Shown: positions 1-11,387, counted from the first letter of the stretch. The stretch: DNA of 11,387 nt from a virus (IMGVR_UViG_2654587686_000004:1-11387); one strand, 5' to 3'. Notes: a model not told the origin generated them from the letters alone. Program-made: numbers and translations.

Positions 1-2
1 TG

Positions 3-2732
3 ATGGGGCAGTTTGGTGACTCCATCCAGCGAACGCAGGGGGCGATCAAAAATCTCGAGCGTCAGGCGCGATCATTTGAGCGCGCCCGCGACGCTGTCAG
101 TAAAGCGGATGCGGGTATCGTGAAAGCACGACGCCAGCTTAACGCCCTTAATCAGTTACAACGCACGGGTACAGTGCTCAGCGAAAAACAACAAAAGCTG
201 ATGCAGCAGTTAAGCACCCGGCTTGAACGCCTGAATGAATCGCGCACACGGGAAATTCAGAAAATGCGGGAACTTGGCGGAGAGCTAAAACGCCACGGCA
301 TTTCCCTGACAGGTAGCGATAACACCATCCAGCAGGCCATCAGACGCACCGAACAGTACAACAACCAGCTTGAACGCGAACGGCAGGCGCTTGCGCGTGT
401 AACGCGGGCGCGTGAGCGGTATTCGCGCGCGCAGGAAACAGCGGGAAAACTGAAAACAGGTGGTGCGCTGGCAATTGGTGCGGCAGCGGCGGGCGGCTAT
501 GCTGCCGGGCGTTTTTTGCAGCCTGCGATCGGGTTCGGCAAAGAGATGTCCCGCGTTCAGGCACTGACGCGAATCGACCAGAACAGCCCGCAGTTTAAGG
601 CGCTGCGTGAGCAGGCGTTAAAACTTGGCTCTGAAACGCAGTTCACCGCAGGCGATGCCGCCAGTGGACAGGCATTTCTTGCAATGGCTGGCTTCACTCC
701 GCAGGCCATTCAGGCTGCGCTTCCCGGCGTGCTGAGCATGGCAACGGCTGGCGGTATGGATCTCGGCGAGACGGCAGATATTGGCTCAAATATCCTGACG
801 CAGTTCGGCCTTTCTGCTGACCAGATGGACCGGGTCGGTGACACACTCACCGCAGCGTTTACCCGTACCAACACTGACCTTCGCGCACTGGGCGAAACCA
901 TGAAATATGCAGGTCCGGTGGCGGGCAAGCTGGGAATATCGCTGGAGCAGGCCGCAGCGATGGCGGGCGTGCTGGCGAATATGGGTATCAGGGGAAGTGA
1001 TGCCGGGACGGCAATGCGTGCCAGCCTGGCTCGTCTGGCATCACCGCCAAAGGCGGCAGCAGAGGCGCTGAAAGAGCTGGGCGTGTCTGTCTCGGATGCT
1101 GGGGGCAAAATGCGCCCGATGGAGGATGTGCTGGCCGACCTTTATAAAGCCACCCGCAAATACGGGGAAGTTGACCGGGTATCGTTCTTTAAGGACATTG
1201 CCGGAGAAGAGGCTTTCACATCGTTTATGGCGCTCGTTGATGCAGCGGGTGACGGTTCCTTACCCAAACTGAGAAAAGAACTTGAAGGCGCGCGCGGTGA
1301 GGCTGAACGCACAGCAAAGGTTATGGCCAACAACCTTGACGGCGATCTGAAATCACTCGGCAGTGCATGGGAAGGGGTGCGCATCCGCATTGCAGATCTG
1401 ATTGACGGTCCGCTGCGTTCTGTCACGCAGTGGCTCACGCGGGTGGTATCAAGGGTGACGGCGCTGGCGCAGGCCCATCCGGCACTGACGCGCCAGCTAC
1501 TGATAGCAGGCGGTGCGTTGCTGGCAATGACTGCAACGGTTGGCTCGTTGTCGCTGGCTATTGGTGTGCTTGCTGGTCCGCTGGCAAAACTGCGTCTTGG
1601 TTTTTCTCTCCTGACCGGATCAATGAATGCTGTCAGGGTCCTGCCAGCGCTGTGGGGAATGGTGACGGGTTCCGTTTCTTTACTGGGAGGCGCTATCGGG
1701 GCGCTGTTCAGTCCGGTTGGTCTTATCGTGGCTGCGCTTGCCGGAGCTGCCGTTCTTATCTGGAAATACTGGGATCCCATCAGGGCATTTTTTGCCGGGG
1801 TGTTCAGCGGGATTATGGAAAGGCTGACCCCGCTGCGCGAAACCTTTGAACGGTTTGGTCCTGTTTTTGACGCAATCGGAAGCGGGATCAGCCAGGTGTT
1901 TAACTGGTTTAAATCGCTGCTGTCACCGATGGAGTCCAGCAAGGAAACGCTGGATAAATGTACCAGTGCTGGCGAGATATTCGGTAACGTTCTTGGCGGT
2001 GCGTTACAGCTTGTTCTGACACCTGCAAAAATGCTACTGGATACGCTGGCGTGGATACTTGAAAAACTTGGCGTCCTTCCGGATGAAGCGGAAAAGGCGC
2101 GCAAGAAAATCGAAGACGCACAGCGTGCGGCCATTCTTCAGGACAAGGTTGCCTTGCTTCAGGGGGACCTGGCGAAAATCAATCCGCCGAAGCCTGTGGA
2201 AAATGGCAATGGCACCGGAGGTGATAAACCCAAAGACAACAAACCGCTCACAGACAGCAATACCGGGACGCTACGCAGACTCAGCAAAATTGCTGATAAC
2301 ACAGGTAAGCTGGTTGATGAGACGAAAAAACGCATTGGCCCCGGCGATATTGTCTTTAAGAACCTGCCCCGCGCACTGGCTGTTCGTGGGGAGTGGCAGG
2401 AGCGGAAGATTGCGCAGGTCAGTAAGCCTGCCCCCGCAATTAATATCACACCCGTGGTCCCGGCTCCGCTGCCTCCGGCGCTGGTCCCTGTTGTTGCGGC
2501 CAGCTCCCGCCCGGTGGCGGAGGCCATACGATCGCCAGTGGCATCAGTTCCTGCAACTTCCCGTAACCGGGAGCCGGTTGCCTCCGGATTTGGCGGTGAA
2601 ATTCATGTTCATCTGCATAACGTTGTTACACAGAATCCCCGCGAACTGGCGAAACTGGTCGGTGAAATGGTCAGGGCAGAAATGGAACGGCGCGCCCGTG
2701 CCGGGCGTGGCAGTTTTTACGATAAAGATTGA
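3..2732 (+). CDS. Phage tail tape-measure protein (P2 gpT-like), 909 aa
   Basis: Long ORF with a coiled-coil-rich N-terminus, a central core resembling TP901/P2-type tape-measure proteins, a Gly/Ala-rich hydrophobic segment and a Pro-rich C-terminus. ATG at 3-5 overlaps TGA at 1-3, so the start may be genuine and coupled to an upstream gene, but upstream sequence is not visible. Followed directly by a gpU-like gene as in P2. Identity from memory of the family, not searched. Confidence 0.88.
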   Translation: MGQFGDSIQRTQGAIKNLERQARSFERARDAVSKADAGIVKARRQLNALNQLQRTGTVLSEKQQKLMQQLSTRLERLNESRTREIQKMRELGGELKRHGISLTGSDNTIQQAIRRTEQYNNQLERERQALARVTRARERYSRAQETAGKLKTGGALAIGAAAAGGYAAGRFLQPAIGFGKEMSRVQALTRIDQNSPQFKALREQALKLGSETQFTAGDAASGQAFLAMAGFTPQAIQAALPGVLSMATAGGMDLGETADIGSNILTQFGLSADQMDRVGDTLTAAFTRTNTDLRALGETMKYAGPVAGKLGISLEQAAAMAGVLANMGIRGSDAGTAMRASLARLASPPKAAAEALKELGVSVSDAGGKMRPMEDVLADLYKATRKYGEVDRVSFFKDIAGEEAFTSFMALVDAAGDGSLPKLRKELEGARGEAERTAKVMANNLDGDLKSLGSAWEGVRIRIADLIDGPLRSVTQWLTRVVSRVTALAQAHPALTRQLLIAGGALLAMTATVGSLSLAIGVLAGPLAKLRLGFSLLTGSMNAVRVLPALWGMVTGSVSLLGGAIGALFSPVGLIVAALAGAAVLIWKYWDPIRAFFAGVFSGIMERLTPLRETFERFGPVFDAIGSGISQVFNWFKSLLSPMESSKETLDKCTSAGEIFGNVLGGALQLVLTPAKMLLDTLAWILEKLGVLPDEAEKARKKIEDAQRAAILQDKVALLQGDLAKINPPKPVENGNGTGGDKPKDNKPLTDSNTGTLRRLSKIADNTGKLVDETKKRIGPGDIVFKNLPRALAVRGEWQERKIAQVSKPAPAINITPVVPAPLPPALVPVVAASSRPVAEAIRSPVASVPATSRNREPVASGFGGEIHVHLHNVVTQNPRELAKLVGEMVRAEMERRARAGRGSFYDKD

Positions 2733-2744
2733 GGAGTCATGGCC

Positions 2745-3233
2745 ATGATGATGATCTACGGCATGTTTGTTTTTGAGCTGCGCACGCTGCCGCATCAGCA
2801 GTTACAGCAAAACAAAAGCTGGCGGCATGTGAAAAATGAACGCGTTAACCGTTCAGCAAGCTGGCAGTATATCGGTGCAGGAGATGATCGCATCGTTCTT
2901 TCTGGTGTGCTTTATCCTGAAATTACAGGTGGCGAAGTATCGCTGTCGCTGCTGACCACGCAGGCGTATACAGGACGCCCCTGGCCTCTGATTGATGGCG
3001 TCGGGCAGATTTACGGCATGTATGTGCTGACTGAAACGAATACGACCCGTTCCGAGTTTGATCGCTACGGTAAGGCGAAAAAGATAGAATTTTCACTGAC
3101 CCTTGAACGCTGTGATGAGGATTTGCGGGAGCGCCTGCAATCCTCATCGTTCAGTGATATGCTGTCCGGCTTCAAAGATAAGGTGACATCATCTCTTAAC
3201 AGCGCGGCCAGCTCCGTTAAAGGGCTGTTTTGA
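2745..3233 (+). CDS. Phage tail protein, P2 gpU-like
   Basis: ORF 2739..3233; the N-terminus MMMIYGMFVFELRTLPHQ and the internal GVLYPEITGG and WPLIDG motifs resemble P2 gpU. GAGGAG at 2731-2736 is 8 nt upstream of the ATG at 2745, which is the preferred start; the ATG at 2739 is too close to it. Stop TGA at 3231-3233. Confidence 0.85.
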   Translation: MMMIYGMFVFELRTLPHQQLQQNKSWRHVKNERVNRSASWQYIGAGDDRIVLSGVLYPEITGGEVSLSLLTTQAYTGRPWPLIDGVGQIYGMYVLTETNTTRSEFDRYGKAKKIEFSLTLERCDEDLRERLQSSSFSDMLSGFKDKVTSSLNSAASSVKGLF

Positions 3234-3240
3234 TTAACGC

Positions 3241-3270
3241 AAAACCGCTAATGGTCAGATTAGCGGTTTT
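3241..3270. terminator. Bidirectional rho-independent terminator hairpin between convergent gpU and invertase genes
   Basis: Perfect 12-bp inverted repeat AAAACCGCTAAT (3241-3252) / ATTAGCGGTTTT (3259-3270) with a 6-nt loop GGTCAG. T-runs follow the stem on both strands (CATTTTCC on +). The invertase stop codon (3260-3262) lies inside the 3' arm. Confidence 0.7.
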
Positions 3271-3859
3271 CATTTTCCTGAGTCTGCCTGGTTGTTTCTT
3301 CAGCCTGTATATCGCCTACAGGGTGATAACGATAAATCGTCGATATGCCGATGTCGTAAATGATCGCCAGTTGTTTCCTGTCATGACCGTTTTTAATCAG
3401 TCTCGCTATTTGCTCATGTTGTTCTTTTGTCAACTTCGGGCGACGTCCGCCAATGCGTCCTTGTGCGCGTGCTGCTGCCAGCCCGGCCAGTGTACGCTCT
3501 ACAATTAATTCACGTTCCATTTCGGCTAAAGCCCCCATGACGTGAAAAAAGAAACGCCCCATGGGTGTTGATGTGTCAATGCTGTCCGTCAGACTACGGA
3601 AATTAACACCTTTTTCCCGCAATTCCTCAATAAGCGTGATCAGGTGTTTCATACTTCTGCCCAGTCTGTCCAGCTTCCAGACAACCAGCGTATCTCCTTC
3701 TGATAGCGTTCTGAGCAGTTTTTTCAATCCCGGTCTGGCTGATTTCGTTCCGCTGATTTTATCTTCAAAAATCAGTTCACATCCTGCGCAGTTCAGTGCA
3801 TTGCGTTGTAAATCCGTGTTCTGGTCATTTGTTGACACACGAATATAGCCAATTTGCAT
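3260..3859 (-). CDS. Serine DNA invertase, Gin/Hin/Pin/Cin (Din) family
   Basis: Translation from the ATG at 3859-3857 starts MQIGYIRVSTNDQNTDLQRNAL and contains DTLVVWKLDRLGRS, SLTDSIDTSTPMGRFFFHVMGALAEMERELIVERT, GRIGGRRPKLT and a C-terminal helix-turn-helix (GISTIYRY). This is near-identical in motif content to Gin/Hin/Pin as recalled, with the catalytic Ser at residue 9. AAAGAGG lies 9 nt upstream of this ATG. The ORF track extends to 4045 only because there is no upstream in-frame stop. Confidence 0.95.
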   Translation of the reverse strand: MQIGYIRVSTNDQNTDLQRNALNCAGCELIFEDKISGTKSARPGLKKLLRTLSEGDTLVVWKLDRLGRSMKHLITLIEELREKGVNFRSLTDSIDTSTPMGRFFFHVMGALAEMERELIVERTLAGLAAARAQGRIGGRRPKLTKEQHEQIARLIKNGHDRKQLAIIYDIGISTIYRYHPVGDIQAEETTRQTQENENR

Positions 3860-3912
3860 AAAAAACATCCTCTTTGTTTCGTGAAAAATACATAGTTGGT
3901 ATAGGTAGGGAT

Positions 3913-3938
3913 AAAACGAAAACGTTGGTTTGGGGGAA
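3913..3938 (-). repeat. Invertase crossover site s1 (hix/gix-like, 26 bp), inverted relative to s2-s6
   Basis: Reverse complement reads TTCCCCCAAACC-AA-CGTTTTCGTTTT: a 12-bp left half identical to the other five sites, central AA dinucleotide, and imperfect right half. Resembles hixL (TTCTTGAAAACCAAGGTTTTTGATAA, from memory). Lies 53 bp upstream of the invertase start. Confidence 0.75.
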
Positions 3939-4388
3939 GGCTCTGCACTGCCCGTTGGCGTGCCCGTTCCGTGGCCTTCAGCAACACCGCCAACGGGGTG
4001 GCTGAAATGTAACGGCGCAGCATTTTCTTCTGAAATGTACCCCAATCTGGCAAAGGCTTACCCAACGTTAAAATTACCTGATTTACGCGGTGAGTTTATC
4101 CGTGGTTGGGATGATGGGCGCGGGGTGGATGCGGGAAGGGGCATCTTAAGCATACAGGGGTGGTTAACAGGAAGTCATTATCATAATATTCGGTCATGGG
4201 ACGCGTGGGATAACACGGTACTGGTGCCAAATGACAAAGGAGGGGATAGTCTGTTGTCGACAGATAACGCCGTCCGGCAAGGTGCAATTAACGGTAGATT
4301 TACCAGTCAATACAGAACGGAATCCTCAGTGGGGAATGAAACCCGCCCACGCAATATTGCCTTCAATTATATTGTGAGAACCGCATAA
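3930..4388 (+). CDS. Silent alternative tail-fibre C-terminal cassette A (collar-like receptor-binding tip); no ATG start
   Basis: Begins inside s1 with GLGEGSALPVGVPVPWPSATPPTGWLKCNGAAFSSEMYP...LPDLRGEFIRGWDDGRG and ends ETRPRNIAFNYIVRTA. An in-frame TAA lies 6 codons upstream and there is no ATG or ribosome-binding site; the tracked start is a TTG. Same architecture as the expressed H C-terminus. Confidence 0.8.
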   Translation: MGEGSALPVGVPVPWPSATPPTGWLKCNGAAFSSEMYPNLAKAYPTLKLPDLRGEFIRGWDDGRGVDAGRGILSIQGWLTGSHYHNIRSWDAWDNTVLVPNDKGGDSLLSTDNAVRQGAINGRFTSQYRTESSVGNETRPRNIAFNYIVRTA

Positions 4389-4999
4389 TGAATAACGCGA
4401 TATTAAATGATGACCTTATTGCCGTACAGGCAGGAAACATCGTCGTTTATAACTATGATGGTGAGACACGGGAATATATTTCCGAATCAACTGAATATCT
4501 TGCTGCGGGTGTCGGTATTCCGGCAAATTCCTGTTTAGATGCCCCGGGCGCACATAAAGCGGGCTATGCTATCCGCCGTTCGGAGAATTTAAATTCATGG
4601 GAGTATACGCCAGATCATCGTGGTGAAACCGTCTATAGCACTGACACGGGAAACACCGAAGAAATCACGACGCTGGGTGACTACCCGAAAAATACAACCA
4701 CTATCGCCCCGTTAACACCATACGATAAATGGGATGGTGAAAAATGGGTGACAGATACTGAGGCACAACATGGTGCCGCAGTAGAAGCGGCAGAAACCAA
4801 GCGCCAGTCACTGGCTGATGCGGCAATGGCTTCCATAAGTCTGATTCAGTTGAAGTTGCAGGCCGGGCGGAAGTTGACGCAGGCAGAAACCACCCGGCTT
4901 AACGCCGTGCTGGATTATATAGACGCACTGAACGCAATGGATATAAACATGGCACCAGATATCAACCGGCCGGAAATACCACTGGCAGCAGCCAGTTGA
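4388..4999 (+). CDS. Tail-fibre assembly chaperone (Tfa; lambda Tfa / Mu U / P2 G family)
   Basis: ATG overlaps the cassette A stop (TAATG). Sequence blocks GIPANS, DHRGETVY, KWDGEKWV, TDTEAQ, ETKRQSL and the C-terminal PDINRPEIP parallel lambda Tfa (LPANS, DHRGKTVY, KWNGTAWV, PDIEWPAVP) as recalled. Confidence 0.88.
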   Translation: MNNAILNDDLIAVQAGNIVVYNYDGETREYISESTEYLAAGVGIPANSCLDAPGAHKAGYAIRRSENLNSWEYTPDHRGETVYSTDTGNTEEITTLGDYPKNTTTIAPLTPYDKWDGEKWVTDTEAQHGAAVEAAETKRQSLADAAMASISLIQLKLQAGRKLTQAETTRLNAVLDYIDALNAMDINMAPDINRPEIPLAAAS

Positions 5000-5005
5000 A
5001 TATAA

Positions 5006-5482
5006 CTAAGCCGCCCTCACGATATAGTTAAATGCAATATTGCGGGGGCGGGTTTCACTACCACCTGTGTTACCAATACTTCCTCGTGAATGAAGCGTTG
5101 GTGATGGAATCAAACTCCCTCCTGTATTTGTGGCATCAAGCCCCCTGCCTTGTGTATATGTTTTTTTGAAAATCGTGGCCAACTCCCATTCATCCTTTGT
5201 GTCATATCCATCGTTAGCTACAACAATATGGCGGTGTTTTTCCAACATCCCGGTTTGAATGCTCAATAAAGCGCGTGCTGCATCAATTCCTCGCCCATCA
5301 TCCCAGCCGCGAATAAATTCGCCCCGTAAATCCGGTAATTTATTGGCGGGGTAGGCTTTTGCCAGTTTGGGGTAATCTTCAGAAGAAAATGCTGCACCGT
5401 TACATTTCAGCCAGCCCGTTGGTGGTGTTGCTAAGGGCCACGGAACGGGCACGCCAACGGGCAGTGCAGAGCCTTCCCCCAA
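5006..5482 (-). CDS. Silent alternative tail-fibre C-terminal cassette B; no ATG start
   Basis: Conserved 70-aa N-terminus (GEGSALPVGVPVPWP...RGWDDGRGIDAAR), unique core and conserved C-terminus SETRPRNIAFNYIVRAA. Starts inside crossover site s2. Its 3' end converges on tfa with only 6 bp between the stops. Confidence 0.8.
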   Translation of the reverse strand: MGEGSALPVGVPVPWPLATPPTGWLKCNGAAFSSEDYPKLAKAYPANKLPDLRGEFIRGWDDGRGIDAARALLSIQTGMLEKHRHIVVANDGYDTKDEWELATIFKKTYTQGRGLDATNTGGSLIPSPTLHSRGSIGNTGGSETRPRNIAFNYIVRAA

Positions 5483-5499
5483 ACCAACGTTTTCATACT
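5474..5499 (+). repeat. Invertase crossover site s2 (26 bp)
   Basis: TTCCCCCAAACC-AA-CGTTTTCATACT. The left half is the first codons (GLGE) of cassette B; the right half contains the stop codon of cassette C. Confidence 0.75.
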
Positions 5500-5999
5500 G
5501 CCCTTACGATATAATTAAAGGCAATGTTACGAGGACGGTTTTCGTTTGCAGTTGGAACAATTCTTGAAGCATCAAGGCCAATCACTTTTGGGTAAACAGA
5601 GCCATCTGTTCTTTCTATCACCATACTTCTGATTAAGGAGAAATAACTATTGTTCGTTGAGGGGTTCAAAGGCACCACTGCCCCCTTAAATGAGTCTACT
5701 GATTCCCATATTGAATAATTTTCGGTGTTTACAGTCTTGAACTCACCATAGATATTACGTATGGCATCGCCCTGAGCGGATAATATTGCTCTCCCCGCAT
5801 CCACACCACGCCCATCATCCCAGCCACGGATAAATTCACCGCGTAAATCCGGTAATTTATTGGTGGGGTAGGCTTTTGCCAGATTGGGGTACATTTCAGA
5901 AGAAAATGCTGCACCGTTACATTTCAGCCACCCCGTTGGCGGCGTGGCTGAGGGCCATGGAACGGGCACACCAACGGGCAGCGCAGAGCCTTCCCCCAA
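5493..5999 (-). CDS. Silent alternative tail-fibre C-terminal cassette C; no ATG start
   Basis: Conserved N-terminal block, unique core, C-terminus ENRPRNIAFNYIVRAV. Starts within s3; stop lies within s2. Confidence 0.8.
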   Translation of the reverse strand: MGEGSALPVGVPVPWPSATPPTGWLKCNGAAFSSEMYPNLAKAYPTNKLPDLRGEFIRGWDDGRGVDAGRAILSAQGDAIRNIYGEFKTVNTENYSIWESVDSFKGAVVPLNPSTNNSYFSLIRSMVIERTDGSVYPKVIGLDASRIVPTANENRPRNIAFNYIVRAV

Positions 6000-6016
6000 A
6001 CCAACGTTTTCATGCT
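5991..6016 (+). repeat. Invertase crossover site s3 (26 bp)
   Basis: TTCCCCCAAACC-AA-CGTTTTCATGCT. Same half-site and core as s2; overlaps the cassette D stop (TGA, 6010-6012) and the cassette C first codons. Confidence 0.75.
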
Positions 6017-6438
6017 GCCCTTACGATGTAATTAAACGCAATATTACGAGGACGAATGGTTACATAATTAACCCCATCACCTCGTGAAGGCCCTGCAAAT
6101 GAAAAACGGGAAAAGCCTGGTTGGTTAGAAACAATTTGGTCATAGTTATTGATTGAATGACCAGACCCAATGTCGAAATTACCTCCGTAATGAGAAAAAC
6201 TTGTACCATCCTGCCCTGAAAGCAGGGTACGTCCCGCATCAATCCCGCGCCCATCATCCCAGCCACGGATAAATTCACCGCGTAAATCCGGTAATTTATT
6301 GGTGGGATAAGCCCTTGCCAGTCTGGGATACATTTCAGAAGAAAATGCTGCACCGTTACATTTCAGCCAGCCCGTTGGTGGTGTTGCTGAGGACCACGGA
6401 ACGGGCACACCAACGGGCAGTGCAGAGCCTTCCCCCAA
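6010..6438 (-). CDS. Silent alternative tail-fibre C-terminal cassette D; no ATG start
   Basis: Conserved N-terminal block (one substitution, PWSSAT), unique core, C-terminus TIRPRNIAFNYIVRAA. Confidence 0.8.
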   Translation of the reverse strand: MGEGSALPVGVPVPWSSATPPTGWLKCNGAAFSSEMYPRLARAYPTNKLPDLRGEFIRGWDDGRGIDAGRTLLSGQDGTSFSHYGGNFDIGSGHSINNYDQIVSNQPGFSRFSFAGPSRGDGVNYVTIRPRNIAFNYIVRAA

Positions 6439-6455
6439 ACCAACGTTTTCATGCG
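6430..6455 (+). repeat. Invertase crossover site s4 (26 bp)
   Basis: TTCCCCCAAACC-AA-CGTTTTCATGCG. Confidence 0.75.
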
Positions 6456-6982
6456 GCTCTTACGATGTAATTGAATGCAACGTTGCGGGGGCGTGTTTCT
6501 GCTGTGCCGACAATACTGGTACTCAGTCCTGTCGCTGTTCGTTTGTTATTTTTATTCCCTTCGATAAGACAGTTGTAATCGTCATTACCAATTAACGAGT
6601 TGGTGGCATCAATACTGTCCGGGGACAAGGCATTAGTTGTGGAACTTAAAGTCAGCATCTCGTCTGAACTTGGAAGATTTTTTAATGGTGTTTCATTACG
6701 TGAAATACCCGCATAAAAAAAGGACTCATGCCTGTGCGCTTCAAAGGAGTCATCCTGAAGACTTAGCAAGGCACGCCCAGCATCCAAGCCACGTCCATCA
6801 TCCCAGCCACGGATAAATTCACCCCGTAGATCCGGTAATTTATTCGCGGGGTAAGCCTGTGCCAGTTTGGGGTAATCTTCAGAAGAAAATGCTGCGCCGT
6901 TACATTTCAGCCAGCCCGTTGGCGGTGTAGCTGAGGGCCACGGAACGGGTACACCAACGGGCAACGCAGAGCCTTCCCCCAA
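6449..6982 (-). CDS. Silent alternative tail-fibre C-terminal cassette E; no ATG start
   Basis: Conserved N-terminal block, the longest unique core (about 90 aa), C-terminus AETRPRNVAFNYIVRAA. Confidence 0.8.
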   Translation of the reverse strand: MGEGSALPVGVPVPWPSATPPTGWLKCNGAAFSSEDYPKLAQAYPANKLPDLRGEFIRGWDDGRGLDAGRALLSLQDDSFEAHRHESFFYAGISRNETPLKNLPSSDEMLTLSSTTNALSPDSIDATNSLIGNDDYNCLIEGNKNNKRTATGLSTSIVGTAETRPRNVAFNYIVRAA

Positions 6983-6999
6983 ACCAACGTTTTCATGCG
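6974..6999 (+). repeat. Invertase crossover site s5 (26 bp)
   Basis: TTCCCCCAAACC-AA-CGTTTTCATGCG; overlaps the stop codon of H (TGA, 6993-6995) and the first codons of cassette E. Confidence 0.75.
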
Positions 7000-8633
7000 G
7001 CTCTTACGATGTAATTGAATGCAACGTTGCGAGGGCGAGTTTCTGTACCTACATTTCCACTAATTTCACCAAACCGTTTTACATTACGAGAGCTAATGGC
7101 TCGTAGTGAGGAAGGCACCTTTAAACCGGGTTCGTCTGTTTTAACTATTCCCCCGTCCCCGTATGTAGCCAGTATTCCAGGGTTTACTCCTTCCCGTGCA
7201 CTTCCCGCGGCAAGTCCGCCCCCGGTCCATAATTCCATATAGTGTGCATGATCCAAAATTGTGTGTGGCTGCCAATTAAGCAAAGCGCGACCAGCATCCA
7301 CCCCGCGCCCATCATCCCAGCCGCGAATAAATTCTCCCCGTAAATCCGGTAATTTATTGGCGGGGTAGGCTTTTGCCAGTTTGGGGTACATTTCAGAAGA
7401 AAATGCTGCGCCGTTACATTTCAACCACCCCGCTGGCAGCGTGGCTGAGGGCCATGGAACGGCCACACCAACAGGCAGCGCAGAGCCTTCCCCCAAACCA
7501 AGGTAATCAAGAACTCCCTGAGTGCTGGTTTTGCCAAGAATGGCACGTCCAACACTTGTCAACGCGGTTAACGCGGCACGATCTGCCCCTGTAAAATATG
7601 GGAGTTTATCTGCTGATGTGGCAAGCTCCGCCAGCGCCGTCAGGGTGGCATCCTTCGGTTGCTTACCCGCAAGCGCGTTAGTCATGGTGGTCGCAAAATT
7701 CGGGTCATTGCCCAGCGCCGCAGCCAGTTCGTCCAGCGTGTTCAGTGCATCAGGTGACGAATCTACAAGTGCGGCAATCGCGGCCATAACGAAAGCCGTG
7801 CTTGCGATCTGGGTACTATTAGTCCCCTGTGCCGCCGTTGGTGTTGTTGGCGTTCCGGTCAGTGCCGGGCTGTTTAATGGTGCTTTCTTGTTCGTTTCAT
7901 CCATTACCGCCTTAACAGCTTTTGGTGTCGCTGCCAGCGTTTCAGACGTGCTGTTCGTGGCGCTACTGAGCTGAACAATCCCTTTTTGTGTAGTGGTGGC
8001 GTTCTGGGCGGTATATTTCCCGTTAGCCAGGTCATATGCAGCCTTAACCGCTTTCGGTGTTGCGGCCAGTGTTTCTGATTCACTGTTAATTGCACTGCTT
8101 AACTGAGTAAAACCTTTTACGGTCAGCGAGGCGTCCGGGTGACGTCGTGACTGTTCGTGCTCTGAGATTTTATCATCCACATATTTGCGGGTTGCCAGAA
8201 CCACAGACGGGTCGATTTTCAGCGTGATGGCTTCGGTGTTCGTGACAACCAGAATCATGCGGATAGTCTGGGTGCGTCCACTGCCTTCCTGCAACTGCGG
8301 TTTGTACGTTTCCGGGCAGTTTGCCACCGCAATAAGTACGCCTTCATCATCATAAAGACCAATCTCACGGATCCAGAATCCTCCCTCGTTTTCAGGGATG
8401 ATTTGTTCCGCAATAATCTGGCTCTGATTGTTAGGGTCAACACTCAGAAGATTCAGCGGTGCAATGCGTTTCTGGTTAATCAGTTTTGTTTGTGCAGGGT
8501 CTGGTGTTGGTAACACACCATTTGCATCACCAACGGCCATTTGCGTCAGATTCAGCTTACTGCCGAGCATCGTCGCGTTAGCCAGTCGTGCCGCGCCCTG
8601 ATTAGTCAGAATGGCGTAGTATTTCACTGTCAT
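6993..8633 (-). CDS. Tail-fibre protein (P2 gpH-like constant N-terminus fused to expressed C-terminal cassette F)
   Basis: 546-aa ORF whose ATG overlaps the gpI stop (ATGA). The N-terminal ~160 aa (MAVGDANG, GGFWIREIGLYDDEGVLIAVAN, KPQLQEGSGRTQT) resemble P2 gpH. Residues ~381-546, downstream of crossover site s6, have the same collar-like cassette architecture as the five silent cassettes and end ETRPRNVAFNYIVRAA. Confidence 0.93.
   Translation of the reverse strand: MTVKYYAILTNQGAARLANATMLGSKLNLTQMAVGDANGVLPTPDPAQTKLINQKRIAPLNLLSVDPNNQSQIIAEQIIPENEGGFWIREIGLYDDEGVLIAVANCPETYKPQLQEGSGRTQTIRMILVVTNTEAITLKIDPSVVLATRKYVDDKISEHEQSRRHPDASLTVKGFTQLSSAINSESETLAATPKAVKAAYDLANGKYTAQNATTTQKGIVQLSSATNSTSETLAATPKAVKAVMDETNKKAPLNSPALTGTPTTPTAAQGTNSTQIASTAFVMAAIAALVDSSPDALNTLDELAAALGNDPNFATTMTNALAGKQPKDATLTALAELATSADKLPYFTGADRAALTALTSVGRAILGKTSTQGVLDYLGLGEGSALPVGVAVPWPSATLPAGWLKCNGAAFSSEMYPKLAKAYPANKLPDLRGEFIRGWDDGRGVDAGRALLNWQPHTILDHAHYMELWTGGGLAAGSAREGVNPGILATYGDGGIVKTDEPGLKVPSSLRAISSRNVKRFGEISGNVGTETRPRNVAFNYIVRAA
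7488..7513 (+). repeat. Invertase crossover site s6 at the H constant/variable junction
   Basis: TTCCCCCAAACC-AA-GGTAATCAAGAA. The left half is identical to s1-s5 and the core is AA; the right half is the diverged H constant-region sequence (codons for VLDY). Any cassette joined here gives the same in-frame YLGLGEGS junction. Confidence 0.75.
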
Positions 8634-9238
8634 GCGTTTACTCTCAGATTATCAATTAAATGAATGGCCGGGGCAGGGAAATAATCCCCTTCGACAATAA
8701 TGGACTCCGGGGTGTAGGGATAAACCGTCAGGGCATCGCCGTGATAGCATCCCGTACCAACGAAAATCTTTCCGTTCACACTCAGGCTGATCGCCAGCCC
8801 CGTCAGATGGCGACTTACTGGTTTTGCATCCGCAATAAGGCGCTCAAGTTCCTGATACATTTCATCGGTGATGCCCTGATCAAGTACTCCGACAACAATG
8901 CGAAATGTTCCTGGCTCCTCGTTGAGTTGCCACCACTCCTTTACTTCAATCAGGTAGCCGAGAGGCTCCACGGCTCTTCGCAGTGCGCTGATGGTCCCTT
9001 TGTGTCGGTGTATCAGCCATGCATCACGAATTACCTGTCGCTTTGTCTCTTCCGGCCAGTTGCGATCCCAGCGGTCAACGGAAAACGCCCAGGCGAGATA
9101 AGGCAGCAGATGCACCGGGCAGGTATCCGGCGACCACAGCGTATTGAGGTCTACCGGAATGTCTGTAATGCGTGTTCCGACGGCTTCGGCACAACGCATG
9201 AAACTGCTGGCTGATGGTGGTAACAACGAATTACTCAT
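8630..9238 (-). CDS. Baseplate/tail protein, P2 gpI-like
   Basis: From the ATG at 9238-9236 the protein reads MSNSLLPP...NTLWSPDTCPVHLLPYLAWAFSVDRWD...RLIADAKPVSRHL, resembling P2 gpI. This ATG overlaps the last codon and stop of gpJ (ATGAGTAA); the tracked ORF start at 9271 would overlap gpJ by 41 nt and is less likely. The stop overlaps the H start. Confidence 0.85.
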   Translation of the reverse strand: MSNSLLPPSASSFMRCAEAVGTRITDIPVDLNTLWSPDTCPVHLLPYLAWAFSVDRWDRNWPEETKRQVIRDAWLIHRHKGTISALRRAVEPLGYLIEVKEWWQLNEEPGTFRIVVGVLDQGITDEMYQELERLIADAKPVSRHLTGLAISLSVNGKIFVGTGCYHGDALTVYPYTPESIIVEGDYFPAPAIHLIDNLRVNA

Positions 9239-10127
9239 TGCGTCCACCTTCGCTGATGGTGAATGACTCACAGCGCGCCGCCTGTATGTCGCTGATGGCC
9301 ATATTCTGTGTGGGTTCGATTATCTCCACGCGTTGCACGCCGTGCACATGCAGTGCGGCAGCAATGGCGGACAACGCCACGTCCTGACCGATAAGCCCCT
9401 GTTCAGCCAGCCACTTCCTGAATGACGATTCCGCCGCGGCCAGAATAGGTTCGGATTCCGGACCGGGGTAAAAGTACAGTTTTGCATTCAGCCGCCATGT
9501 CACGATTCTGGCGCTCTGTACGGTCAGGCGGTCGGCCACCGGGCGGGTATCCTCTGCATTCAGAACGGCGCGAACGGTATTAAGCAACGCCTCCGTTGCA
9601 GTGCCGTCGCCCTCAGTGGACAGGATGGAAAGCGTCACACAGGCCGGAGACGGGCTGATGGCCCGCGCATCACGCACCAGACCGCTGGCGCTGCGTGCAA
9701 AATACTCGTATGCGCCTGACGGGCCTGCAACACTCAGGCCGTCATACGCCCGTTGCGCCCGTAGTCTCAGCGAGGTGTCGCTCTCCATCACCGCGTCGGT
9801 GGTATCCGTTGCCGGAGTGATAACCAGGCGCTTTGTGTTCATATTGCCCGCGAGGTTGTCCAGGTTTGTCCCTGAACCGTGGCTTAACATACAGGCGCGT
9901 GCGCCCTCATTGACCCGCTGGCGTAACAGCATTTCACGAAACGACATGGTTTGAGCGATAACGTTAAGGGGTTCCGATTCCAGCTCCAGCGCGGCGGAAA
10001 CGGCTTCACGCTGTTCGGCGGGATAGGACGCAATCATCATGGCCTTTGTGTCAGCCAGAATTGCCTCAAAATCAGGCTCCGCGATGATGGCGGGTTCCGG
10101 TAACTGGGAAAGGTCAACAGCAGGCAT
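9231..10127 (-). CDS. Baseplate assembly protein, P2 gpJ-like (baseplate J family)
   Basis: 298 aa, MPAVDLSQLPEP..., with blocks (RQRVNEGARA, YDGLSVAGPSGAYEY, SPSPACVTLSILS, RPVADRLTVQSA, LHVHGVQRVEI) resembling P2 gpJ. ATG is 3 nt after the gpW stop. Confidence 0.9.
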   Translation of the reverse strand: MPAVDLSQLPEPAIIAEPDFEAILADTKAMMIASYPAEQREAVSAALELESEPLNVIAQTMSFREMLLRQRVNEGARACMLSHGSGTNLDNLAGNMNTKRLVITPATDTTDAVMESDTSLRLRAQRAYDGLSVAGPSGAYEYFARSASGLVRDARAISPSPACVTLSILSTEGDGTATEALLNTVRAVLNAEDTRPVADRLTVQSARIVTWRLNAKLYFYPGPESEPILAAAESSFRKWLAEQGLIGQDVALSAIAAALHVHGVQRVEIIEPTQNMAISDIQAARCESFTISEGGRNE

Positions 10128-10130
10128 GAT

Positions 10131-10481
10131 TTACTCTCTCAGCGTGATGGTTAATTCAACATTCTGCATGGTCTGCATGACAGTGCCCGACAGCGTCACC
10201 CCGGCGCGGCCTCCTGCCTTCCAGACAACGTCGATAGCGTCCAGGGCAATGCGGGGTTCCCATCGCGTCAGTGCAATCACGGCAGCACTCATGCATTGCA
10301 GACGCGTGGTGTTATTCATGGGTTCGTCAATCAAATCAGGCACAAGGCTGCCATATTCCCGTCGCATAACCCGGCTTGCCAGCGGGGTGGTCAGGATGTC
10401 CCTGACTGACTGTTTCAGGTGCTCCATATCGTTCAGGTTTCCCGTTCCGTCCGGGTTCATTCCTGTGTAGCGGGTTGTCAC
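10131..10481 (-). CDS. Baseplate wedge protein, P2 gpW-like (GPW/gp25 family)
   Basis: 116 aa, MTTRYTGMNPDG...SRVMRREYGS...LTRWEPRI, resembling P2 gpW. The start codon is GTG (10481-10479) overlapping the gpV stop (GTGA). Confidence 0.85.
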   Translation of the reverse strand: MTTRYTGMNPDGTGNLNDMEHLKQSVRDILTTPLASRVMRREYGSLVPDLIDEPMNNTTRLQCMSAAVIALTRWEPRIALDAIDVVWKAGGRAGVTLSGTVMQTMQNVELTITLRE

Positions 10482-11059
10482 TGCGGGCCTCCTGTCGAAT
10501 CGCTGCCACCTTTAACGCCACCGTGTTTATGCGTATGCACGGTAATGCCGTTTGAGGTGAAATTGCCGCCGCTGTGCGTGATATTGCCGCTCATCTTTCC
10601 CCCTTTTGTGACGTCAAGCGTCGCCGTTCTCAGAAGGTCTGTGCATTCCACGACGGGCGTATCCAGTGTCACGCTGACGGATGCCTGCAGGGTGGCTGTT
10701 TTCATGCCGCTGGCGCTCAGTGCGCCTGCGTCCGCGTCGTAGCGGAACACCGCGCCATCCGGCGCGCTGACCACGATTTCTTTCAGGCTTTTGCCGGGGG
10801 CCGGAATGGCATCACTCCACAGGCTGCCAATTATCATGGCGGTTTCCGGGTTGCCGCCAATGCAGGCAATTGCCACCTGTTCGCCTGGTGATGGCGGCAG
10901 CCACACATTGAAGGCTCCCGCGCGCGTGGTGTTCCAGCGCAACCAGCCTGTTTCCAGTTCGCCGCTGCGAACGCGCACGCGCCAGGACTTCTCATCAACT
11001 TCAGAGATGATCCCGGTGCGGATGATATTGCTCAGTAGCCGCATGAGTTCTGCGCTCAC
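10478..11059 (-). CDS. Baseplate spike/hub protein, P2 gpV-like
   Basis: 193 aa with IRTGII, WLRW, PSPGEQV, a Gly-rich middle and the C-terminal GITVHTHKH, resembling P2 gpV. GTG start overlaps the gpS stop (GTGA). Confidence 0.88.
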   Translation of the reverse strand: MSAELMRLLSNIIRTGIISEVDEKSWRVRVRSGELETGWLRWNTTRAGAFNVWLPPSPGEQVAIACIGGNPETAMIIGSLWSDAIPAPGKSLKEIVVSAPDGAVFRYDADAGALSASGMKTATLQASVSVTLDTPVVECTDLLRTATLDVTKGGKMSGNITHSGGNFTSNGITVHTHKHGGVKGGSDSTGGPQ

Positions 11060-11387
11060 CGTACAGCCTCCGCAATCCGGCCCAGCACCGTGTTATAAAT
11101 CAGGCGCTCATCTGCCTGGCTGATACCCAGCAGCTCACGTACCGGGTAATCGGTGAAAATGCCCGGCGCAACCTGATCGCGCTCACCGAACTGATGAACG
11201 CGTGCAATACGTGCGGCCACGCCGCTGTAACCCACCGTCACACCGGAAGCATCTGCACGGGCTTTCAGGTAGCGGGCGGTGCGCAGTTTTGCGAACATGG
11301 GGACGCGCTTTGTGCTGTCCTGGTTGATGCGCCGGGTGCGTATTTCCAGAAAACGGTCGATGTCATCCCGGTAAAACGTGCGGATAT
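11056..11387 (-). CDS. Tail completion protein, P2 gpS-like; 5'-truncated by window end
   Basis: The reading frame is open from the window edge (11387) to the stop at 11056-11058; the ATG at 11298 used by the ORF track is internal. Position immediately upstream of gpV and the C-terminal sequence are consistent with P2 gpS; family assignment is less certain than for the others. Confidence 0.65.
   Translation of the reverse strand, partial: IRTFYRDDIDRFLEIRTRRINQDSTKRVPMFAKLRTARYLKARADASGVTVGYSGVAARIARVHQFGERDQVAPGIFTDYPVRELLGISQADERLIYNTVLGRIAEAVR

What the first reader, a model, noticed from the sequence alone, without database searches (positions are those of the whole stretch)
3913..7513. 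Six-site, six-cassette invertible tail-fibre array under a Gin/Hin-family invertase in a P2-type tail module
Six copies of a 26-bp hix/gix-like site share an identical 12-bp half-site (TTCCCCCAAACC) and an AA core. Each sits exactly at the 5' end of a tail-fibre C-terminal cassette, and the array is flanked by a serine invertase gene and the H constant region. Classical Mu, P1 and e14 systems toggle 2 cassettes and p15B Min shuffles several; six alternative receptor-binding tips on one P2-like fibre would give an unusually broad programmed host-range repertoire.
Basis: partly seen in the sequence, partly recalled or inferred. Interest (0 to 1): 0.85.

Follow-up and report, generated by a model that had tools for sequence, protein, structure and literature searches.

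The report
Invertible six-tip phage tail-fibre shufflon
A P2-type E. coli prophage carries six interchangeable tail-fibre tips that a DNA-flipping enzyme can splice one at a time onto the fibre gene; this is real, but it is a larger copy of a well-known and common host-range switch.

Summary
Six 26-bp sites have an identical half-site TTCCCCCAAACC and an AA core. Each sits at the 5' end of an intact tail-fibre tip cassette. The array lies between an intact Gin-type serine invertase gene and the constant part of gene H.

One site is inverted relative to the other five. This allows 240 isomers, and every cassette can be fused to H within two inversions of the present state.

The system is not unusual. 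The invertase differs by 1 of 199 residues from that of EPEC E2348/69. Its three-site version of this locus was shown experimentally to exist as four coexisting isomers (Goldberg 2014). Near-identical prophages carry the same cassettes in other orders and orientations, with breakpoints mapped to 8 nt around the core. P1-like phage-plasmids of the p15B Min type carry the same module with 7-9 cassettes. Of ten sampled prophage contexts encoding this exact invertase, three have six or more sites.

The cassettes resemble the T4 gp37 tip: conserved collar-forming ends around a hypervariable middle.

Verdict: a new, larger member of the Min-type multiple-inversion system on a P88-like backbone. Still open: only one chaperone gene serves six tips, and inversion in this particular strain is untested.

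The parts
3241..3270 (.). Hairpin with T-run between gpU (2739-3233, +) and the 3' end of the invertase gene. It is a terminator-like boundary of the module.
   Evidence: Terminator scan: 12-pair stem. The overall number of terminator-like hits in the region is no more than chance.
3260..3859 (-). Serine DNA invertase gene, 199 aa, Gin/Cin/Pin/Min family.
   Evidence: Pfam Resolvase 1.5e-51 plus HTH_7. E=3e-91 to Gin structures 4m6f/3uj3 over residues 1-185, with RVSTNDQ and KLDRLGRS intact. It is 198/199 identical to the E2348/69 invertase, 94.7% to the invertase of P1-like plasmid pJMK02, 73.7% to P1 Cin and 73.3% to Mu Gin.
3770..3841 (-). Stretch equivalent to the recombinational (Fis) enhancer, coding nt 19-90 of the invertase gene. 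Its role is inferred.
   Evidence: It aligns with the enhancer annotated in P1 cin. It is 57/72 identical to that enhancer, against 67% for the first 540 nt of the gene, and 72/72 identical to E2348/69. Fis binding was not tested.
3913..3938 (-). Crossover site 1, the only site inverted relative to the others. Its outer half lies 53 nt upstream of the invertase start codon.
   Evidence: It occupies the same position relative to the start codon as Mu gixR does relative to gin.
3927..4388 (+). Cassette T1 (153 aa from GLGE), silent in this arrangement. Its stop codon overlaps the tfa start codon.
   Evidence: It is 93% identical to a cassette of the P1-like plasmids.
4388..4999 (+). The only tail-fibre assembly (chaperone) gene, tfa, 203 aa.
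   Evidence: Pfam Caudo_TAP 3.3e-31. It follows T1 in every related locus examined.
5006..5485 (-). Cassette T2 (159 aa). It converges on tfa. T1-tfa-T2 together form the one double-headed invertible segment.
5474..5499 (+). Crossover site 2.
5493..6002 (-). Cassette T3 (169 aa), of the GDAIRNI/DASR tip type.
   Evidence: E=8e-26 to short tail fibre 9cuy_c.
5991..6016 (+). Crossover site 3.
6010..6441 (-). Cassette T4 (143 aa).
   Evidence: It is 99.8% nt identical to the H-fused cassette of E2348/69.
6430..6455 (+). Crossover site 4.
6449..6985 (-). Cassette T5 (178 aa).
   Evidence: It is 100% nt identical to the copies in L013 and L014, where it sits in other positions.
6974..6999 (+). Crossover site 5. 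Its outer half contains the TGA stop codon of H (6993-6995).
6993..7499 (-). Cassette T6 (168 aa), currently fused in frame to H and therefore the expressed tip.
   Evidence: E=6e-18 to the T4 gp37 tip 2xgf, matching in three stretches: the N part of the collar, the HxH motif and the C-terminal NIAFNYIVR.
7488..7513 (+). Crossover site 6, at the constant/variable junction of H (codons ...LGLGE...).
   Evidence: The junction is homologous to Mu Sc/Sv (...GLQE).
7500..8633 (-). Constant part of tail-fibre gene H (Hc).
   Evidence: Pfam Phage_tail_fib 1.7e-62 and Phage_fiber_2 repeats. It is 99% nt identical in L012-L014, where it is fused to other cassettes.

Best explanation
This is a Min-type multiple DNA-inversion system (a serine-invertase 'shufflon') that sets which receptor-binding tip a P2-type (P88-like, Xuanwuvirus) prophage puts on its tail fibre.

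Only the cassette joined to the constant part of gene H at site 6 is translated. At present that is T6. The other five lack a start and stay silent.

The invertase pairs two sites that lie in inverted orientation, cuts at the shared 2-bp AA/TT core and flips the DNA between them. By family analogy it does this in a Fis/enhancer-dependent synapse that rejects directly repeated sites.

Each internal site is made of the last codons and stop codon of one cassette (outer half) and the first codons, GLGE, of the next (inner half). Every inversion therefore recreates legal junctions.

The array consists of four single-cassette segments plus one double-headed segment (T2 <- tfa <- T1). Successive inversions reach 240 isomers, and any of the six tips can be fused to H. 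T1 needs one inversion from the present state; T2 to T5 need two.

Each tip has conserved ends that build a gp37-like collar. Its hypervariable middle (17-27% identity between cassettes) forms the distal receptor-binding part. A lysogen population would therefore release virions of up to six adsorption specificities, as a form of bet-hedging.

Shown here: the anatomy, the combinatorics, the homology, and rearrangement at these sites in relatives. Inferred: Fis dependence, activity in this particular strain, and the receptor specificities.
For: - Sites, cassettes and invertase are all intact.
- All six cores are identical, so any pair of sites is compatible.
- A breadth-first search with inversion allowed only between inverted sites gives 240 states. 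T3-T6 are each fused to H in 48 states and T1 and T2 in 24 each. At most 2 steps are needed to express any cassette. The same number, 240, is cited for p15B Min.
- There is experimental precedent. The E2348/69 locus NC_011601 1891695/1892127-1893703 coincides with the three sites I mapped in L004. Whole-genome sequencing and PCR showed four coexisting isomers there. Its invertase is 198/199 identical to this one, and the enhancer-equivalent stretch is 72/72 identical.
- Natural isomers exist. In L013 and L014 the backbone is 99-100% nt identical to the window (the invertase gene and the 65 nt upstream of it 100%, Hc 99.0%) and T4/T5/T6 are 99.8-100% identical, yet the cassettes are inverted or reordered. 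L014 equals the window after two legal inversions.
- The breakpoints are narrowly mapped. The inner half-site variant GGTTTAGGAGAA travels with T2 behind three different outer halves. This confines the crossover to an 8-nt interval that contains the core.
- The related arrays with intact junctions obey the head/tail grammar that inversion-only rearrangement predicts.
- The tip architecture is supported by sequence: the first 72 aa are 88-97% identical, the last 16 aa 81-100% and the middle 17-27%, with matches to gp37 (2xgf) and 9cuy.
- In a related Gin-type three-tip shufflon of Enterobacter phage FRphi, phage locked into each isoform differed in infectivity, and the one infective tip uses FhuA.
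Against: - No read-level data exist for this strain. The window is a whole 11.4-kb contig of a draft assembly, so inversion here is inferred from relatives.
- The outer half-sites are poor matches to the gix/cix consensus.
- Fis sites were not demonstrated. A loose Fis-like motif gives 9 hits against 5.5 expected.
- Only one tfa gene serves six tips. It lies on the strand opposite to H in the present state and in half of all states, so some isomers might give poorly assembled fibres.
- Three E2348/69 assemblies all show the same arrangement. This is uninformative about inversion.
Confidence: 0.88

Rival explanations
1. A frozen relic. The array was built by past duplications and inversions but no longer switches in this strain. 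The cause could be a silent or unexpressed invertase, a single-residue effect, or degenerate outer half-sites. H-T6 would then be the only tip ever made.
For: There is no read-level evidence for this strain. The outer half-sites are degenerate. Some relatives carry decayed cassettes: frameshifted or truncated ones in L012, L013 and L014, a pseudogenised H in L002, and an IS next to the invertase in L008.
Against: The invertase is full length. It differs by 1 of 199 residues, near the C-terminal tail, from the invertase of the experimentally switching E2348/69 locus. The enhancer-equivalent stretch and the inner half-sites are identical. All six cassettes and tfa are intact. The same kind of outer half-site works in E2348/69.
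Confidence: 0.07
2. The rearrangements arise from general (RecA) homologous recombination between the 215-280-bp inverted repeats at the cassette 5' ends, and not from site-specific cleavage at the 26-bp sites.
For: The repeats are long and 75-90% identical. Goldberg et al. described the repeats simply as 215-bp inverted repeats.
Against: Crossovers inside the repeat would produce chimeric cassette 5' ends, and none are seen. T4/T5/T6 stay 99.8-100% identical at nucleotide level along their whole length in new contexts. Cassette-specific polymorphisms beginning 6 nt into the inner half-site always travel with the cassette, and the outer half always stays with the neighbour. This maps the exchange to 8 nt around the core. 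An adjacent Gin homologue is conserved in all loci. In the related FRphi system a gin-deletion prophage was sequenced alongside the wild type for isomer quantification; I did not read the outcome.
Confidence: 0.03
3. The elements are real, but the particular order shown in the window is an assembly product: a majority or chimeric path through a mixed population of isomers in a short-read draft assembly.
For: The window is an entire 11,387-bp contig of a draft assembly. Clonal cultures of E2348/69 and FRphi lysogens contain mixtures of isomers. The FRphi authors explicitly warn about assemblies made from non-clonal populations.
Against: The arrangement is one of the 240 legal states. Every junction pairs the expected outer half with the 3' end of the preceding cassette. 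This reading does not conflict with the main explanation. It presupposes active inversion.
Confidence: 0.1

Closest known systems
Min multiple-inversion system of plasmid prophage p15B (E. coli 15T-; Sandmeier, Iida, Arber 1990-92) and its copies on P1-like phage-plasmids
   Same: Both have a Din-family serine invertase next to the array. Both have six crossover sites and 240 isomers. Both fuse one constant 5' fibre gene part to alternative 3' cassettes, and both have a single tfa inside a double-headed segment. Proxies for p15B share the module: L018 (pJMK02) and L021 (p160070-MCR). A different plasmid of almost the same size, pMCR_SCKP-LL83, is reported to carry a segment 99% identical to p15B min; I assumed, but did not verify, that L021 is its relative. 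In the proxies the invertase is 94.7% identical, the half-sites are the same, and cassettes are 93-97% aa identical to T1, T2, T4 and T6.
   Different: Here the constant part is a P2-type H gene (546 aa) in a P88-like chromosomal prophage, not the roughly 500-875-aa S gene of a P1-like plasmid prophage. T3 and T5 have no close counterpart in the two plasmids examined. The original p15B sequence X62121 and the original papers could not be read here, so the comparison runs through proxies and citing papers.
Three-site 'shufflon' in the P2-like prophage of EPEC E2348/69 (Goldberg et al. 2014, PMC4272514)
   Same: It has the same prophage type and position. The invertase is 198/199 identical, the sites are the same, and it carries the same T1-tfa-T2 segment and T4 cassette (94-99.8% nt). 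Four isomers were demonstrated experimentally.
   Different: It has three sites, three tips and 4 isomers. The window has six sites, six tips and 240 isomers.
Mu Gin/G segment, P1 Cin/C segment and the P88 invertible segment
   Same: The invertases are homologous (73% aa). The 26-bp site design is the same: gix is TTCCTGTAAACC-GA-..., cixR is TTCTCTTAAACC-AA-.... The crossover falls in the same ...GL(Q/G)E codons of the fibre gene, and the invertase gene abuts one site. P88 shares the baseplate backbone at 92.6% nt.
   Different: Those systems have two sites, one invertible segment and two large Sv cassettes, each with its own chaperone (U and U'). Here there are six small collar-type cassettes and a single chaperone gene.
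Gin-dependent three-isoform tail-fibre shufflon of Enterobacter prophage FRphi (Nat Microbiol 2026, PMC13418256)
   Same: It is a temperate-phage tail-fibre gene with alternative C-terminal cassettes and a gin-encoded recombinase. Isoforms were quantified by long reads, and one isoform was tied to a receptor, FhuA.
   Different: It has three isoforms. Its sequence relationship to this array was not tested here.
R64 shufflon (pilV; Komano)
   Same: It also uses multiple overlapping inversions that attach alternative C-termini to one constant gene.
   Different: It uses a tyrosine recombinase (Rci) with unrelated sites, and it diversifies a conjugative pilus adhesin rather than a phage fibre (from general knowledge; cited).

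Membership tests
Din family of serine DNA invertases (Gin/Cin/Hin/Pin/Min) | Small serine recombinase: N-terminal resolvase catalytic domain plus C-terminal HTH, about 190 aa | tested here: met
   PF00239 1.5e-51 (residues 3-135) and PF02796 1.4e-12 (138-180), 199 aa in all. E=3e-91 to Gin structure 4m6f.
Din family of serine DNA invertases (Gin/Cin/Hin/Pin/Min) | Catalytic Ser9 in R-V-S-T-N-D-Q, the D-R-L-G-R motif, and a wild-type E-helix | tested here: met
   The alignment to Gin shows RVSTNDQ, KLDRLGRS and GALAEMERELI all conserved. The Met that is Val in the crystallised Gin sequences is retained. My recollection, not checked here, is that this substitution is the Fis-independent M114V mutation.
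Din family of serine DNA invertases (Gin/Cin/Hin/Pin/Min) | 26-bp crossover sites: two imperfect inverted 12-bp half-sites around a 2-bp asymmetric core that is identical in the partner sites | tested here: met
   The inner half TTCCCCCAAACC matches gix TTCCTGTAAACC and cix TTCTCTTAAACC at 9/12 positions. The core is AA in all six sites, as in cix. The outer halves are degenerate (..GAAAACG or GATTACC).
Din family of serine DNA invertases (Gin/Cin/Hin/Pin/Min) | Fis-bound recombinational enhancer in the 5' part of the invertase gene | tested here: inconclusive
   The stretch equivalent to the annotated P1 cin enhancer is 79% identical (57/72), against 67% for the first 540 nt of the gene. A loose Fis motif scan is not above chance. 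No binding data exist.
Din family of serine DNA invertases (Gin/Cin/Hin/Pin/Min) | The enzyme actually inverts DNA between inverted sites | not testable with these tools
   There are no reads for this strain. Indirect support comes from the E2348/69 experiment and from natural isomers with breakpoints at the core.
Min-type multiple-inversion (tail-fibre shufflon) system | More than two crossover sites, giving overlapping invertible segments. One constant 5' gene part and several promoterless 3' cassettes in frame with it | tested here: met
   There are six sites and six in-frame intact cassettes, of which only T6 is joined to Hc.
Min-type multiple-inversion (tail-fibre shufflon) system | Topology of single-headed segments plus one double-headed segment, giving 240 isomers with six sites | tested here: met
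   The search finds 240 reachable states. The literature figure for p15B Min is 240.
Min-type multiple-inversion (tail-fibre shufflon) system | Sequence homology of invertase, sites and cassettes to the Min module of P1-like plasmids | tested here: met
   The array shows about 88% nt identity to P1-like plasmids. The invertase is 94.7% identical, and four cassettes are 93-97% aa identical. These plasmids are proxies for p15B, and not p15B itself.
Min-type multiple-inversion (tail-fibre shufflon) system | Carried by a P1/p15B-type plasmid prophage and fused to the S fibre gene | tested here: not met
   The backbone is P2-type/P88-like: GpU, I, J, W and V, with 92-97% nt identity to Xuanwuvirus phages. 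The module works like Min, but its host element is of a different phage family.
T4 gp37-type collar/needle receptor-binding tips | The N- and C-terminal segments jointly form the collar, and the intervening chain forms the distal tip, with HxH metal motifs | tested here: inconclusive
   The evidence is sequence only. T6 matches 2xgf in three stretches, including DHAHYMELW against EHSHYIEAW and the C-terminal NIAFNYIVR. HxH is present in T1, T2, T5 and T6 but not in T3 or T4. No structure was predicted.

The most novel reading that the evidence does not exclude
A single Tfa chaperone services all six structurally different tips by recognising their conserved collar ends. It can be made whatever its orientation because the array lies exactly where two late operons converge: sheath-tube-E-T-U on the plus strand and V-W-J-I-H on the minus strand. 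Alternatively, five of the six gp37-like mini-tips fold without any dedicated chaperone. Either reading would change the usual 'one tip, one chaperone' rule that is used when engineering P2, Mu or P1 fibres.
Probability: 0.3. Interest if true: 0.4.

Novelty: new member of a known kind. Interest (0 to 1): 0.25.

Why it matters
The finding gives a clean, fully intact six-tip example of programmed host-range bet-hedging in a P2-type prophage.

It also shows that the Min module (invertase, sites and cassettes) is shared almost unchanged between P1-like phage-plasmids and P88-like chromosomal prophages.

Practically, it warns that annotation and assembly of such loci are unreliable. RefSeq calls the silent cassettes simply 'phage tail protein', and the assembled order is only one of 240 possible.

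The six compact tips (143-178 aa) with fixed splice points could be useful parts for retargeting P2-type phages or tailocins.

It does not reveal a new mechanism.

Tried and rejected
- Original p15B Min papers and a review. Look-ups of PMC53420, PMC206102, PMC329034 and of the Johnson 2015 review (by PubMed id, and by a PMC id I guessed from memory) found nothing held. The p15B facts therefore come from citing papers and from plasmid proxies.
- A wrong region. I fetched a region of p160070-MCR using coordinates that belong to a different plasmid. It was irrelevant. I re-fetched through the hit id.
- Three assemblies of E2348/69, compared in the hope of seeing isomers. All three are identical, so they are uninformative.
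- A sigma-70 promoter scan, looking for a promoter for tfa or for the silent cassettes. Hits are no more than chance: 9 against 7.2 expected.
- A Fis-like motif scan: 9 hits against 5.5 expected, not significant.
- Three extra half-site-like matches with 2 mismatches (5364, 6864, 7064). They lie inside coding repeats or the T6 body, and the two I read (5364, 6864) lack a plausible second half-site. I rejected them as sites.
- Tyrosine-recombinase shufflon and DGR-type diversification. I considered both and dismissed them. The adjacent enzyme is a serine invertase, and the variable regions are discrete cassettes, not mutagenised repeats.
- Structure prediction and the large protein-database searches were not run, because the answer did not depend on them.

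Full report
**What is in the sequence**

The window holds a P2-type tail region. Tape measure (3-2732) and GpU (2739-3233) are on the plus strand. Baseplate genes V, W, J and I and fibre gene H (6993-8633) are on the minus strand. The two gene sets converge on a 4.3-kb block.

Reading the plus strand, the block contains, in order:
- a terminator-like hairpin (3241-3270);
- a 199-aa serine recombinase gene (3260-3859, minus strand);
- a 152-aa Collar-domain ORF, here called T1 (3930-4388, plus strand);
- a tail-fibre assembly gene, tfa, whose start overlaps the T1 stop (4388-4999, plus strand);
- four more Collar-domain ORFs on the minus strand: T2 5006-5482, T3 5493-5999, T4 6010-6438 and T5 6449-6982;
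- the 3' end of H, whose last 168 residues are a sixth such unit, T6.

**The observation**

One copy is on the minus strand (3927-3938) and five are on the plus strand. None of 200 shuffles reaches the hit count seen at up to 2 mismatches.

Extended to 26 bp, all six read half-site, AA, second half-site. Five have CGTTTTC(A/G)T... as the second half. The site at the H junction has GGTAATCAAGAA.

Mu gix, read from the Mu record, is TTCCTGTAAACC-GA-GGTTTTGGATAA. P1 cixR, as annotated, is TTCTCTTAAACC-AA-GGTATTGGATAA. The cassette-side half is therefore a good gix/cix half-site (9/12), and the core dinucleotide equals that of cix. The outer halves are degenerate.

On the coding strand the inner half encodes G-L-G-E. 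This matches the ...GLQE splice point of Mu S.

One caveat applies. The sites are the edges of 215-280-bp repeats that are 75-90% identical. Their excess over chance shows only that they are homologous copies. The case for function rests on the evidence below.

**The invertase**

- It matches the Gin crystal-structure sequences at E=3e-91 over residues 1-185.
- The catalytic RVSTNDQ and KLDRLGRS motifs and the E-helix are intact.
- It has Resolvase and HTH_7 domains.
- It is 73.3% identical to Mu Gin and 73.7% to P1 Cin. It is 94.7% identical to the invertase of a P1-like phage-plasmid, and 198/199 identical to the invertase of the E2348/69 prophage.
- The stretch aligned with the enhancer annotated in P1 cin (coding nt 19-90; window 3770-3841) is 57/72 identical to P1, against 67% for the first 540 nt of the gene. 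It is 72/72 identical to E2348/69. Whether Fis binds there is inferred, not shown.
- Site 1 lies 53 nt upstream of the invertase start codon, where gixR lies relative to gin.

**The cassettes**

All six open with GLGEGSALPVGV and close with ...RPRN(I/V)AFNYIVR(A/T)(A/V). None is interrupted.

| Cassette region | Pairwise identity between cassettes |
|---|---|
| First 72 residues | 88-97% |
| Last 16 residues | 81-100% |
| Middle 55-90 residues | 17-27% |

T6 matches the T4 gp37 tip structure 2xgf (E=6e-18) in three separate stretches: the N-terminal collar part, an HxH motif (DHAHYMELW against EHSHYIEAW) and the C-terminal NIAFNYIVR. From my knowledge of the gp37 structure, the chain leaves the collar, forms the needle and tip, and returns to the collar. 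That would explain conserved ends around a hypervariable middle. This is an inference from sequence alone.

T3 instead matches another short tail fibre (9cuy, E=8e-26) through QGDAIRNI and DASR..ENRP motifs. The six tips therefore belong to at least two architectures.

**How the array can rearrange**

Each internal site is made of the end of one cassette and the beginning of the next. For example, the TGA stop of H at 6993-6995 lies inside the outer half of site 5.

I modelled cassette starts as 'heads'. Cassette ends and the two fixed flanks are 'tails'. The array is then four head-tail segments (T6, T5, T4, T3) plus one head-head segment (T2 <- tfa <- T1).

With inversion allowed only between oppositely oriented sites, a breadth-first search gives these results:
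- The present state has five possible inversions, and all of them involve site 1.
- 240 states are reachable, with a maximum distance of six steps.
- T3 to T6 are each fused to H in 48 states. T1 and T2 are each fused in 24.
- From the present state, T1 needs one inversion and T2 to T5 need two.
- tfa lies on the H strand in 120 states.

The same figure, 240 isomeric forms, is quoted for the six-site Min system of p15B.

**Evidence that such arrays really invert**

First, experiment. Goldberg et al. 2014 found by whole-genome sequencing and PCR that a P2-like prophage locus of EPEC E2348/69 exists as four coexisting isomers in clonal cultures. They gave its coordinates as NC_011601 1891695-1893703 and 1892127-1893703. 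These coincide with the three sites I mapped in that locus: L004 positions 3729, 5287 and 5726, which are record positions 1893694, 1892136 and 1891697. Their published repeat begins ACCTTGGTTTGGGGGAAGGCTCTGCACTG, which is this site. That locus carries T1-tfa-T2 and T4 (94-99.8% nt) and the nearly identical invertase.

Second, natural isomers. The exact invertase protein is indexed in 7224 blocks of the public assembly collection. Ten contexts were shown, chosen as distinct. Two of them matter most:

| Locus | Backbone identity to window | Cassette identity | Order from Hc to invertase |
|---|---|---|---|
| Window | - | - | Hc-T6, T5, T4, T3, T2, tfa', T1' |
| L013 | invertase gene and its 65 upstream nt 100%, Hc 99.0% | T4, T5, T6 100% nt | T6 inverted and next to the invertase; T5 and T4 also inverted |
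| L014 | invertase gene and its 65 upstream nt 100%, Hc 99.0% | T5, T6 100% nt; T4 99.8% | Hc-T6, T5, T2, tfa', T1', T3', T4' |

The L014 order is exactly two legal inversions from the window.

Third, the breakpoints. In L012, L013 and L014 the inner half-site variant GGTTTAGGAGAA always accompanies T2, but it follows three different outer halves: TTCTTGATTACC, AGCATGAAAACG and CGCATGAAAACG. This confines the exchange to an 8-nt interval that includes the 2-bp core. That result argues against general homologous recombination within the 215-bp repeats.

**How common and how known**

- Pieces of the 4.5-kb region match 2259 of 5426 complete E. coli genomes and 283 plasmids, mostly about 95-kb non-mobilisable P1-like elements.
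- The conserved cassette 5' repeat alone is found at full length in 241 genomes, with up to 14 places per genome and 9 per plasmid. Megablast undercounts here.
- Among the ten sampled prophage contexts the site counts are 2, 2, 2, 4, 4, 4, 5, 6, 6 and 8.
- Two P1-like plasmids carry 7 and 9 cassettes with a single tfa. Their cassettes are 93-97% identical to T1, T2, T4 and T6. A similar plasmid is reported to carry a segment 99% identical to p15B min.
- The type phage of the backbone genus, P88, is 92.6% nt identical in the baseplate genes. It has the classical Mu-like two-cassette, two-chaperone segment instead. No phage record in the collection covers as much as 80% of the array.
- A Gin-type three-isoform fibre shufflon with an identified receptor, FhuA, was recently dissected in Enterobacter phage FRphi.
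- Invertases with adjacent inversions are noted as frequent in P2-like fibre hotspots.

**Interpretation**

The locus is a Min-type multiple-inversion host-range switch grafted onto a P88-like (Xuanwuvirus, Peduoviridae) tail module.

It meets the defining features of the Din invertase family that can be tested from sequence. It also meets the architectural features of Min. It differs from canonical Min only in the phage backbone and in the fibre gene it serves.

The claim that the system is unusual is not.

**Limits and loose ends**

- The window is the whole of contig JHQZ01000113.1 from a draft assembly. Activity in this strain is untested, and the order shown may be a majority path through a mixed population.
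- Fis dependence is inferred from family membership.
- Receptor specificities are unknown.
- The one real oddity is that six tips share a single chaperone gene. That gene is translationally coupled only to T1, and it is antisense to H in half of the states, including the present one. Because the array lies between two convergent late operons, read-through from either side might transcribe tfa in both orientations. This is speculation, and the promoter scan gave nothing above chance.

Noticed in passing
window 1-11387: The window is the complete contig JHQZ01000113.1 (11,387 bp) of draft assembly GCA_001265235.1. The tape-measure ORF is cut at the left end. The contig probably breaks where this prophage resembles other P2-like prophages in the same genome.
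   Followed up: partly
window 4388-4999: There is only one tail-fibre chaperone gene (tfa) for six tips. It is always linked to T1 and overlaps its stop codon. It lies antisense to H in the present state and in 120 of the 240 states. P88 and Mu have one chaperone per tip.
   Followed up: partly
window 6988-6999 (and the equivalent outer halves of sites 2-4): The TGA stop codon of each cassette lies inside the outer half-site of the next crossover site (..GCATGAAAACG). Cassettes are thus packed with no spacer, and each cassette 3' end doubles as recombinase-binding DNA.
   Followed up: yes
window cassettes T1-T6 (3927-7499): The tips fall into at least two sequence classes. T1, T2, T5 and T6 have an HxH motif just after the collar part, as in T4 gp37. 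T3 has QGDAIRNI...DASR motifs like PDB 9cuy. T4 has neither.
   Followed up: partly
window 2739-3270 and 6993-11059: The invertible array lies at the convergence point of two late tail operons (T-U on the plus strand, V-W-J-I-H on the minus strand). A 12-bp-stem hairpin at 3241-3270 separates gpU from the invertase gene.
   Followed up: no
L012 4994, L013 2517 and 2875, L014 6933, L002 7927-9291, L008 5587-6291: Related arrays show decay: frameshifted or truncated cassettes, an H gene annotated as a pseudogene lacking its C-terminus, and an IS-type transposase beside the invertase. Some of these may be sequencing errors rather than real lesions.
   Followed up: no
L010 5046-6968 and L016 5104-6929: The identical invertase protein also sits next to classical two-cassette segments. 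In these, one tip is Collar-type and the other is an unrelated Gp53-like_C tip (GLGEAAKR...), and each has its own chaperone gene. The same enzyme and GLGE splice point therefore serve structurally unrelated tips.
   Followed up: no
window 5364-5375, 6864-6875, 7064-7075: There are three further 2-mismatch matches to the half-site. The first two lie in the YPKLA-coding part of T2 and T5 and the third in the T6 body. The two I read (5364, 6864) have no plausible second half-site, so these are probably not crossover sites.
   Followed up: partly
Goldberg 2014 Table S1 versus window sites: The repeats reported for the K-12 e14 P segment and for the EPEC Mu prophage (AAACCTTGGTTTGGGAGAAGG) contain the same inner half-site variant, GGTTTGGGAGAA, that is seen in several arrays here. 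The same splice point is therefore shared across lambdoid, Mu-like, P1-like and P2-like elements.
   Followed up: no
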